Positions 15,059 to 15,396 of a stretch of 15,907 nt of DNA are shown here, piece by piece. Under the pieces are notes generated by a model. It did not search any database and was not told the origin of the DNA. It saw only the letters and a program-made list of their open reading frames with translations. Position 1 is the stretch's first letter; each line of letters starts with the position of its first letter. The position numbers and the translations under genes are program-made. The stretch is from Escherichia coli (lineage in GTDB: Bacteria > Pseudomonadota > Gammaproteobacteria > Enterobacterales > Enterobacteriaceae), in assembly GCF_003334335.1 (NCBI RefSeq), contig NZ_QOWQ01000058.1; one strand, written 5' to 3'.

Positions 15059-15072
15059 TCCCGGCACAGATA

Positions 15073-15089
15073 AGAATAAGTCTTATTCT
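15073..15089. promoter_or_regulatory. Perfect 8-1-8 inverted repeat AGAATAAG-T-CTTATTCT just upstream of the TonB-domain lipoprotein gene; candidate operator overlapping a -10-like TAGAAT
   Basis: Palindrome read directly. On the minus strand the sequence is TTAGAATAAGACTTATTCTTATC, AT-rich and loosely Fur-box-like, 15 to 30 nt upstream of the start codon. Confidence 0.35.
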
Positions 15090-15396
15090 AACAATGCCAC
15101 CCTGTCGGTCATCAATCCTCTGCTTAATGGCAACGACAATTATCCGACTTAAATCACAAATCAGACACATGACATAACAGAGCTTGCGAGGTAACACATC
15201 GTCCGGTTTCTTCCACCATCGCACCGGACCAGCGACCATGAGGGGACAACGCCGCGCTCCGTTAACGCGGTAAACCCCGGTGTGTATCGTTTTTGATTAT
15301 CCCCGCACACTCTCGCAGAGGAGTCTCCCTGTCGGGCTGCGGTCTCTGTTAATGCAGGAATACGGCGACAATACCGCGCATGGATAATAAGGTCGC

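What the first reader, a model, noticed from the sequence alone, without database searches (positions are those of the whole stretch)
15059..15396. Roughly 340-bp apparently non-coding stretch between the Rz-coupled ORF and the TonB-domain gene
No convincing ORF here (the 91-aa minus-strand ORF looks like noise), yet it contains local dyads such as CCGCG-N9-CGCGG at 15251..15269 and the operator-like palindrome. It could hold the moron promoter, a small RNA, or remnants of a displaced gene.
Basis: seen in the sequence. Interest (0 to 1): 0.25.

Follow-up and report, generated by a model that had tools for sequence, protein, structure and literature searches.

The report
Conserved folded RNA after phage lysis genes
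The "empty" 340 bases hold two things: the probable promoter of an inserted TonB-like gene, and a 180-base non-coding element that appears to fold into a conserved, pseudoknotted RNA on the late-gene strand, is found in about a third of E. coli genomes and in phage lambda, and matches no described RNA family.

Summary
No gene is annotated at 15053-15397, the 91-aa ORF is noise, and both dyads exist.

The stretch is composite.

(a) 15068-~15200 is the 5' end of a 604-bp insertion (14605-15208) carrying the TonB-C-terminal-domain lipoprotein gene. It has a promoter-like site (15112-15085, minus strand) and an 8-1-8 palindrome (15073-15089) over the -10/+1 region.

(b) 15201-15380 is a sharply bounded ~180-nt block.
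- It occurs in at least 1911 of 5426 complete E. coli genomes (up to 9 copies), in 398 phage records, in lambda (46862-47034) and in K-12 DLP12.
- It always lies downstream of a lambda-type Rz gene and in the late-operon orientation.
- It lies upstream of four different terminase types.
- It is not coding: frames shift between variants and there is no codon periodicity.

72 variants support a fold on the late-sense strand: two multi-helix domains plus an H-type pseudoknot. 98.2% of cells pair, 11 pairs show changes on both sides, and G·U cells outnumber A·C cells 263 to 9.

It is not in Rfam, and it is not HnrS/EcOnc10-12, which sits beside the block in some prophages but is absent here.

Function is inferred only. 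Most likely it is a cis-acting processing or stability element ending the lysis-cassette part of the late mRNA.

The parts
15201..15380 (-). Conserved ~180-nt non-coding block. As RNA it is sense to the late operon. It starts at the conserved UGCGC and ends with the 3' strand of helix P6.
   Evidence: Sharp conservation boundaries in 94 unique 324-nt fragments. Present in at least 1911 of 5426 E. coli genomes and 398 phage records. Also present in lambda and in K-12 DLP12.
15284..15374 (-). 5' domain. P1: 15374-15368 with 15290-15284. P2: 15362-15352 with 15308-15298. P2 encloses two small hairpins: P3 (15336-15334 with 15329-15327) and P4 (15320-15318 with 15312-15310).
   Evidence: RNAalifold consensus and pair counts: P1 and P2 are 99.4% paired. 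Polymorphic pairs switch U-A/U·G/C-G. Lambda carries a CG-to-GC swap at alignment columns 43/91.
15242..15278 (-). Variable middle hairpin P5. Outer GGGG/CCCC stem: 15278-15275 with 15245-15242. Inner CCGCG/CGCGG stem: 15270-15266 with 15256-15252.
   Evidence: The architecture is kept while the sequence changes (CCGCG/CGCGG, CUGUG/CGCAG). 3 of the 5 inner pairs show changes on both sides.
15201..15236 (-). 3' H-type pseudoknot. Stem S1: 15236-15232 (GUCGC) pairs with 15222-15218 (GCGAU), which lies in the loop of hairpin P6. P6: 15229-15223 with 15207-15201. The third loop is the purine-rich GGUGGAAGAA.
   Evidence: Four different complementary S1 sequences occur among variants: GUCGC/GCGAU, CUCGC/GCGGG, GCCGC/GCGGU, GCCAG/CUGGC. 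P6 shows GC-to-UA swaps in 10 and 4 sequences.
15085..15112 (-). Sigma-70 promoter-like site ATGACC-16 nt-TAGAAT with an upstream TG, 33 nt upstream of the annotated TonB-family start codon.
   Evidence: Consensus scan gives 9/12 plus the TG. The site lies inside the insertion that brings the TonB-family gene. Function was not tested.
15073..15089 (.). Perfect 8-1-8 palindrome AGAATAAG-T-CTTATTCT overlapping the -10 hexamer and the predicted start site. It is a candidate operator; the binding protein is unknown.
   Evidence: The match to the Fur-box consensus is 13/19, which occurs 5 times in this window against 1.1 in shuffles, so it is not diagnostic.
14605..15208 (-). 604-bp moron-type insertion: TonB-C-terminal-domain lipoprotein gene (14726-15052) plus its 5' region. 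It is flanked by the direct repeat CGGTT (14600-14604 and 15204-15208).
   Evidence: It is absent in strain AR_0081, where ylcI/ynfO abuts the block. TIGR01352 TonB_Cterm scores 54.6 bits against a cut-off of 27.1.
15397..15621 (-). 74-aa ORF overlapping the Rz stop codon. It is an optional insert between Rz and the block, listed here as context.
   Evidence: It is present in only some of the 129 loci examined. It matches phrog_2571, of unknown function.

Best explanation
The gap is two adjacent units.

Unit 1 (15068-~15200) is the regulatory 5' end of an inserted moron encoding a TonB-C-terminal-domain lipoprotein. It has a sigma-70-like promoter, and a perfect palindrome sits where a repressor would block RNA polymerase.

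Unit 2 (15201-15380) is a conserved, self-contained non-coding module belonging to the lambda-type lysis cassette. It is transcribed as part of the Q-antiterminated late mRNA. There it folds into a 5' multi-helix domain, a variable hairpin and a 3' H-type pseudoknot.

Shown: the conservation, the fixed position and orientation, the non-coding character, and strand-specific covariation supporting the fold.

Inferred: the module acts in cis as RNA 'punctuation' at the end of the lysis-gene segment. It would be a processing or exonuclease-blocking structure that sets the stability, and so the dosage and timing, of the S-R-Rz message relative to the downstream moron and packaging part of the transcript.
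For: Composite nature. Identical prophages lack 14605-15208 and join ylcI directly to the block.

Conservation. The block is in at least 1911 of 5426 complete E. coli genomes (median 2, maximum 9 places per genome) and in 398 phage records at 77-98% identity, including Stx phages. It is also in lambda 46862-47034, K-12 DLP12 and E. albertii.

Context in 129 loci. The upstream neighbour is a lambda-type Rz, sometimes with the 74-aa ORF or bor in between. The downstream neighbours include four unrelated terminase small-subunit types and various morons. The orientation is always the same.

Non-coding. Frames shift between variants, and there is no codon periodicity in any frame.

Structure.
- 44 pairs, 98.2% of cells paired, against 36-60% when the partners are slid.
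- 11 pairs with changes on both sides, against 4.6±1.1 in shuffles (0 of 500 shuffles reach this).
- Four different complementary pseudoknot stems.
- 263 G·U cells in 17 pairs against 9 A·C cells. All common A/G polymorphisms face U. Five of the six common C/U polymorphisms face G, and the sixth faces A at a pair (163/179) that co-varies U-A/C-G. So pairing is kept only on the late-sense strand.

No promoter-like or terminator-like site of its own lies inside the block, which fits a cis element of the late mRNA.
Against: - No expression, end-mapping or decay data were available, so the mechanism rests on position and anatomy only.
- Simple hairpins suffice as 3' stabilisers. A 180-nt fold with a pseudoknot is more elaborate than that role needs.
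- The single-sequence fold is not unusually stable (z = -0.7). The consensus structure (-44.5 kcal/mol) is well above the MFE (-64.6).
- Lambda's own copy has mismatches in P1 and in the pseudoknot stem.
- HK97 has an annotated Rz-like spanin but no block, so the block is dispensable for lambdoid late expression.
- The variants fall into perhaps 5-8 lineages, so there are few independent substitutions.
- The IMG/VR sequences were retrieved with a 24-mer from the block, so that segment's conservation is partly by construction.
Confidence: 0.4

Rival explanations
1. The block is a stand-alone functional non-coding RNA. It would be excised from the late transcript, or accumulate as a stable fragment, and act in trans during lytic growth. 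It might bind a host or phage protein or a small ligand, for example as a decoy against a host defence or RNA-binding regulator.
For: It is a self-contained module with sharp ends that stays the same while both neighbours change. The fold is complex, with a covarying pseudoknot and conserved junction and loop sequences. It is an accessory element, absent from HK97, as morons are.
Against: No promoter or terminator of its own was found. No Rfam relative was found. No orphan Hfq-binding peak of Tree et al. 2014 Table S2 falls on the Sakai Sp10 copy or, by my estimate, on the Sp5 copy in uninduced cells. Loop conservation carries little weight at 77-98% overall identity: 21 of 73 paired and 26 of 74 unpaired columns are polymorphic.
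Confidence: 0.25
2. The block matters as DNA, or on the opposite strand. It could be a conserved 'linker' where lysis and packaging modules recombine. It could also be a platform for leftward promoters and regulation of leftward morons such as bor.
For: It sits exactly at the mosaic junction between one lysis module and four terminase modules. In HK630 and HK629, which are identical to lambda here, annotators placed a leftward promoter TGGACA-15-TACAAT inside the block, about 130 bp upstream of bor.
Against: The window-type block lacks those promoter bases (it has CGGTCT and TACGGC at the corresponding positions). The 263:9 excess of G·U over A·C, and the partner rule for transitions, are not expected for a duplex-DNA site or for a plus-strand RNA. 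The compensatory changes in the pseudoknot stem have no DNA-level rationale.
Confidence: 0.15
3. The block is functionless DNA that hitch-hikes with the recently spread lysis cassette. The apparent structure would be a by-product of relatedness among a few lineages.
For: Divergence is low, with most copies above 85% identical. Stems and loops vary at similar rates. Lambda's copy carries mismatches. There is no thermodynamic signal.
Against: Neutral decay should produce A·C as often as G·U, and should not produce four mutually complementary versions of a 5-bp pseudoknot stem. Insertions land repeatedly at both edges but not inside, with one exception: an 11-nt duplication at the 5' edge in L011.
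Confidence: 0.15
4. The block encodes a small protein: the 91-aa minus-strand ORF (the homologue of VT2-Sakai orf48), the 10-codon ORF starting at the conserved AUG, or the 35-aa plus-strand ORF.
For: ORFs over the block are annotated in some phage records. The sense frame is open in many variants.
Against: The conserved 3' part is read in different frames in window-type and Sakai-type copies. There is no codon periodicity, and non-synonymous differences exceed synonymous ones in all six frames. The first base of the 'AUG' varies (A/G/U/C), and lambda has an early stop.
Confidence: 0.03

Closest known systems
HnrS (EcOnc10/11/12), a prophage-encoded Hfq-dependent sRNA of EHEC (bioRxiv 10.1101/2025.11.27.690950; Tree et al. 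2014, PMC4104026)
   Same: It occupies the same genomic slot, between the lysis cassette and the terminase-side genes of lambdoid prophages. In Sakai Sp10 its terminator ends about 9 nt from helix P6 of the block.
   Different: HnrS is a 66-nt RNA on the opposite strand with its own start site and an intrinsic terminator. Its sequence is unrelated to the block. It is absent from this window and from all but 7 of the fetched IMG/VR (viral-contig) loci.
Anti-sRNAs AgvB/AsxR and the Pas sRNAs of lambdoid prophages
   Same: They are non-coding RNAs carried in the late region of E. coli lambdoid prophages, often in several copies per genome.
   Different: They lie near Q/PR' or the holin genes. They are short, terminator-ended, trans-acting sRNAs. 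AgvB and AsxR are Rfam families, and no Rfam family matched here.
Intercistronic mRNA stabilisers and processing sites (REP hairpins in malEFG; lambda sib/tI retroregulation). This comparison comes from my own knowledge, not from a tool result.
   Same: They are structured RNA placed after a coding segment of a polycistronic transcript. This is the role I infer for the block.
   Different: Those elements are single hairpins or RNase III stems. The block is a three-domain fold with a pseudoknot. No processing data exist for it.
Leftward promoter annotated in HK630/HK629 (presumably Pbor of lambda)
   Same: It lies inside the lambda-type copy of the same block, at the position equivalent to lambda 46882-46908 on the complementary strand.
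   Different: It is on the other strand. It depends on substitutions found in the lambda- and 933W-type copies aligned here, both from bor-carrying phages, and the window-type sequence lacks both hexamers.
Morons of lambdoid phages (Juhala et al. 2000, as cited in PMC4104026)
   Same: The TonB-lipoprotein segment is an extra gene with its own promoter-like site. It is inserted between conserved late-region blocks and is absent from sister prophages.
   Different: The simple scan found no terminator-like site downstream of the gene. Expression in the lysogen was not tested.

Membership tests
Any Rfam 15 RNA family | Covariance-model score at or above the family's gathering threshold | tested here: not met
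   There were 0 matches at gathering thresholds over the whole window. At E-values up to 10 there were only chance-level hits: mir-1421, ceN70 and SNORD49 over 14500-15907, and mir-1421 alone at 16.6 bits against a threshold of 45 on the 206-nt block.
HnrS sRNA | The 66-nt sequence with the CUUCU seed, the 15-nt complement of the mazF 3' end, and an intrinsic terminator | tested here: not met
   I reconstructed HnrS from Sakai Sp10. It gave 0 matches in the window with up to 3 mismatches.
Protein-coding gene (orf48-like, 91-aa ORF) | Reading frame kept among homologues, with substitutions concentrated at third codon positions | tested here: not met
   The frame differs between window-type and Sakai-type copies. 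Variable columns split 11/9/11, and non-synonymous differences exceed synonymous ones in all six frames.
Structured RNA (generic criterion) | Base pairs maintained by compensatory and wobble changes on one strand | tested here: met
   98.2% of cells are paired. 11 pairs have changes on both sides (0 of 500 shuffles reach this). Slid controls reach only 36-60%. G·U:A·C is 263:9.
Structured RNA (generic criterion) | Folding energy lower than shuffled sequence | tested here: not met
   z = -0.71 on the minus strand and -0.77 on the plus strand.
Independent sRNA gene | Its own promoter and an intrinsic terminator, with a discrete transcript | tested here: inconclusive
   No promoter-like or terminator-like site lies within 15201-15380. 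Transcripts cannot be tested with these tools.
Intrinsic terminator | G+C-rich stem with a short loop, followed directly by a U tract | tested here: not met
   The scan found none in the block. P6 has a 15-nt loop, and most variants have no U tract after it.
Fur-regulated promoter (Fur box) | Close match to GATAATGATAATCATTATC overlapping the promoter | tested here: inconclusive
   The match is 13/19 at 15069-15087. Five matches of 13/19 or better occur in the window against 1.1 in shuffles, so the match is not specific.
Moron (lambdoid accessory insertion) | Present in some prophages and absent from otherwise collinear ones | tested here: met
   AR_0081 lacks 14605-15208. In the 129 loci, TonB-lipoprotein genes are present in a minority.
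Moron (lambdoid accessory insertion) | Its own promoter and terminator flanking the gene | tested here: inconclusive
   A promoter-like site is present, but no terminator-like site was found downstream of 14726.

The most novel reading that the evidence does not exclude
Lambda and a large share of E. coli lambdoid prophages carry an undescribed class of late-expressed, pseudoknotted non-coding RNA. It would act as more than an mRNA stabiliser: a trans-acting or ligand/protein-binding RNA (decoy, sensor or ribozyme-like processing module) that tunes lysis or counters a host factor.
Probability: 0.22. Interest if true: 0.8.

Novelty: new member of a known kind. Interest (0 to 1): 0.5.

Why it matters
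If the fold is functional, phage lambda, DLP12 of E. coli K-12 and the Shiga-toxin phages all carry an unannotated structured RNA at the boundary between their lysis and packaging genes. That would be a new handle on how the 25-kb late transcript is partitioned, on lysis timing in toxin-releasing phages, and on why this junction is a hotspot for accessory genes (bor, HnrS, TonB-like lipoprotein). In practice, several phage records annotate ORFs over the block, some of them named 'Rz-like spanin', and these ORFs are probably not genes. The promoter and palindrome part is an ordinary moron control region.

Tried and rejected
- Rfam at gathering and permissive thresholds: nothing.
- Single-sequence folding: no stability signal on either strand.
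- DUF1398 gene remnant: the annotated CDS in strain DEF10 merely runs into the block.
- EcOnc11/HnrS: I first mapped this Hfq peak inside the block. That was an artefact of a ~137-bp coordinate shift between Sakai genome versions. After correction, HnrS lies beside the block on the other strand and is absent from the window.
- AgvB/AsxR/Pas/svsR sRNAs: they lie at other positions in the prophage.
- 10-codon ORF at the conserved AUG: the first base of the start codon is not conserved, and lambda has an early stop.
- Fur box: 13/19 is not above background.
- cos site: rejected by reasoning. The block lies 0.5-1.6 kb from genome ends and occurs with four terminase types.
- The genome-contig scan with a 15-nt pattern returned almost only chance hits. 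Only E. albertii (L136) and one MAG (L154) were real.
- Literature searches for borD/ybcV/rzoD, for pseudoknot plus lambdoid, and for block k-mers found no description.
- The Casjens & Hendrix lambda review and the StxS paper's supplements were not held.

Full report
**Setting.** All late genes in this part of the window run on the minus strand. In order they are:
- Rz, from 15618 to beyond the window end;
- a 74-aa ORF overlapping the Rz stop codon (15397-15621);
- the gap under study;
- a TonB-family gene (14726-15052);
- ylcI/ynfO on the plus strand;
- HNH endonuclease, terS and terL.

The window is 100% identical to an E. coli prophage (strain JNEC-KY176). In that RefSeq record, no CDS is annotated between the TonB-family gene and the 74-aa ORF.

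The dyads lie at 15252-15256/15266-15270, 15073-15089 and 15201-15207/15223-15229. The 91-aa ORF is not a gene. Its counterpart in VT2-Sakai (orf48) shares the first two-thirds of the translation but reads the conserved 3' part in another frame. Across the variants there is no codon periodicity, and non-synonymous differences exceed synonymous ones in every frame.

**The gap is composite.**
- Megablast against 5426 complete E. coli genomes shows that only 416 genomes match at least 80% of the stretch.
- 1911 genomes match some part of it. In the records listed, the partial matches cover its distal part, about 15200-15396.
- In strain AR_0081 the ylcI/ynfO gene abuts that distal block directly.
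- So 14605-15208 is a 604-bp insertion flanked by a CGGTT repeat.
- The insertion carries a lipoprotein with a TonB C-terminal domain (TIGR01352, 54.6 bits against a cut-off of 27.1).
- Its 5' region has a promoter-like site: ATGACC, 16 nt, then TG-TAGAAT, at 15112-15085.
- The perfect palindrome AGAATAAG-T-CTTATTCT covers the -10 hexamer to about +10. This is the classic position for a repressor.
- Resemblance to a Fur box (13/19) is no better than background in this window.

This part is an ordinary moron control region. Its activity is inferred, not shown.

**The distal block (15201-15380).**
- It has sharp conservation edges in 94 unique fragments from IMG/VR (a public collection of viral contigs): it starts at UGCGC and ends with ...AACCGGA.
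- It is in 398 phage records at 77-98% identity, including Stx1 and Stx2 phages, VT2-Sakai and 933W-like phages.
- It is in lambda at 46862-47034, between bor and lambdap78.
- It is in K-12 DLP12, between borD and ybcV, and in E. albertii.
- HK97 lacks it.

In 129 loci the upstream neighbour is a lambda-type Rz, sometimes with the 74-aa ORF or an oppositely oriented bor in between. Downstream come four unrelated terminase small-subunit types, with or without morons (TonB-lipoprotein, YlcI, DUF1398). The orientation relative to the late operon never changes. So the block is the 3' end of the lysis module, and accessory DNA inserts on either side of it but not within it.

**Structure.** I aligned 72 distinct copies in late-sense orientation (A3). 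RNAalifold and explicit pair counting support the following helices:
- P1 and P2, which enclose two small hairpins (P3, P4);
- a variable two-part hairpin, P5;
- a 3' hairpin, P6.

Inspection of the variant types revealed a further helix. The five nucleotides just upstream of P6 pair with the first five nucleotides of the P6 loop. This gives an H-type pseudoknot with a 2-3-nt first loop, a 0-1-nt second loop and a 10-nt purine-rich third loop. That stem occurs as GUCGC/GCGAU, CUCGC/GCGGG, GCCGC/GCGGU and GCCAG/CUGGC.

For the full 44-pair model:
- 98.2% of cells are standard pairs, against 36-60% when the partners are slid;
- 11 pairs have changes on both sides, against 4.6±1.1 in shuffles (0 of 500 shuffles reach this);
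- 59 cells have changes on both sides, against 11.8 in shuffles.

**Strand.** G·U cells number 263, in 17 pairs. A·C cells number 9, all in rare variants. Every common A/G polymorphism in a helix faces U. Five of the six common C/U polymorphisms face G; the sixth faces A at pair 163/179, which co-varies U-A/C-G. A/G and C/U polymorphisms are also common in unpaired columns. Pairing is therefore maintained on the late-sense strand only. This argues against a duplex-DNA site or a plus-strand RNA.

**Caveats.**
- The fold is not thermodynamically exceptional.
- The lineages are few.
- Lambda's own copy has mismatches in P1 and in the pseudoknot.
- Part of the alignment was anchored on a conserved 24-mer.

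**What it is not.**
- No Rfam family matches.
- The anti-sRNAs AgvB/AsxR and the Pas sRNAs lie near Q/PR' or the holin genes.
- The Hfq-bound orphan peaks EcOnc10-12 of Tree et al. have been renamed HnrS, a 66-nt sRNA that represses hha. They at first seemed to fall inside the block.
- That mapping came from a ~137-bp shift between Sakai genome versions. HnrS actually lies immediately beside the block, on the opposite strand, in Sp10.
- HnrS is absent from this window and from all but 7 of the fetched IMG/VR loci.
- In HK630 and HK629, which are identical to lambda here, a leftward promoter (TGGACA-15-TACAAT) is annotated inside the block upstream of bor.
- The window-type sequence lacks both hexamers. 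The substitutions that create them fall in unpaired parts of the RNA model.
- No paper in the held library prints k-mers of the block.

**Mechanism.** Nothing here measures RNA, so function is inferred.
- The block has no promoter or terminator of its own, travels with the lysis cassette and is read by the Q-modified polymerase.
- The most economical reading is a cis-acting structural 'full stop' for the lysis segment of the late mRNA. It would be a processing site or a barrier to 3'-5' decay that sets lysis-gene dosage independently of the variable, partly antisense-coded DNA that follows.
- I give this about 0.4.
- A trans-acting or protein/ligand-binding late RNA (0.25) is favoured by the elaborate fold.
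- DNA-level or opposite-strand roles (0.15) and neutral hitch-hiking (0.15) are disfavoured by the strand-specific covariation.
- Coding is effectively excluded.

**Verdict.**
- The promoter part is ordinary.
- The block is a candidate new RNA family of unknown function that is widespread and present in lambda itself.
- Interest is moderate (0.5), pending transcript and mutational tests.

Noticed in passing
window 14726-15052 (minus); L006 1443-1688: PHROG family phrog_1267 is labelled 'Rz-like spanin', yet it matches the TonB-C-terminal-domain lipoprotein end to end (E = 8e-43). NCBIfam calls the same protein a TonB family protein. Separately, in the VT2phi_272 record a CDS lying over the non-coding block is also named 'Rz-like spanin'. 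Both labels look like annotation transferred from a neighbouring gene.
   Followed up: partly
L250 (Sakai Sp10), NC_002695.2 ~1946945-1947010, minus strand: The sRNA HnrS (EcOnc11) lies right next to the block. The published Table S2 coordinates are shifted by about 137 bp relative to the current Sakai record. Mapped naively, they place the peak inside the block.
   Followed up: yes
window 14600-14604 and 15204-15208: The 604-bp TonB-lipoprotein insertion is flanked by a CGGTT direct repeat (8 of 10 bases match if the repeat is extended). Its right end supplies the closing base pairs of helix P6.
   Followed up: partly
L252 1224-1250 (HK630), equivalent to lambda 46882-46908 on the complementary strand: A leftward promoter, presumably for bor, is annotated inside the lambda-type copy of the block. 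Its hexamers coincide with substitutions seen in the lambda- and 933W-type copies aligned here (both from bor-carrying phages), and the window-type copy lacks them.
   Followed up: partly
window 15397-15621 (minus): The 74-aa ORF coupled to Rz matches only positions 100-172 of a 291-position PHROG profile (phrog_2571, unknown function). It may be a fragment or a single domain of a larger protein family.
   Followed up: no
L011 6528-6728: One variant carries an 11-nt tandem duplication (CGCCGTATCGT) at the 5' edge of the block. Apart from indels in the variable middle hairpin (P5) and a few single-base gaps, this is the only length change of more than a base or two inside the conserved domains.
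   Followed up: no
window 15213-15220 (minus strand, loop of P6): The octamer GATGGTGG differs from the Chi site GCTGGTGG at one base. It lies in the orientation that is active for an enzyme entering from the cos side. Lambda's own copy does not have it.
   Followed up: no
L002 2061-2594 (strain DEF10): The DUF1398 CDS is annotated as 178 aa because it reads on into the block. The tail is probably a fortuitous extension.
   Followed up: partly
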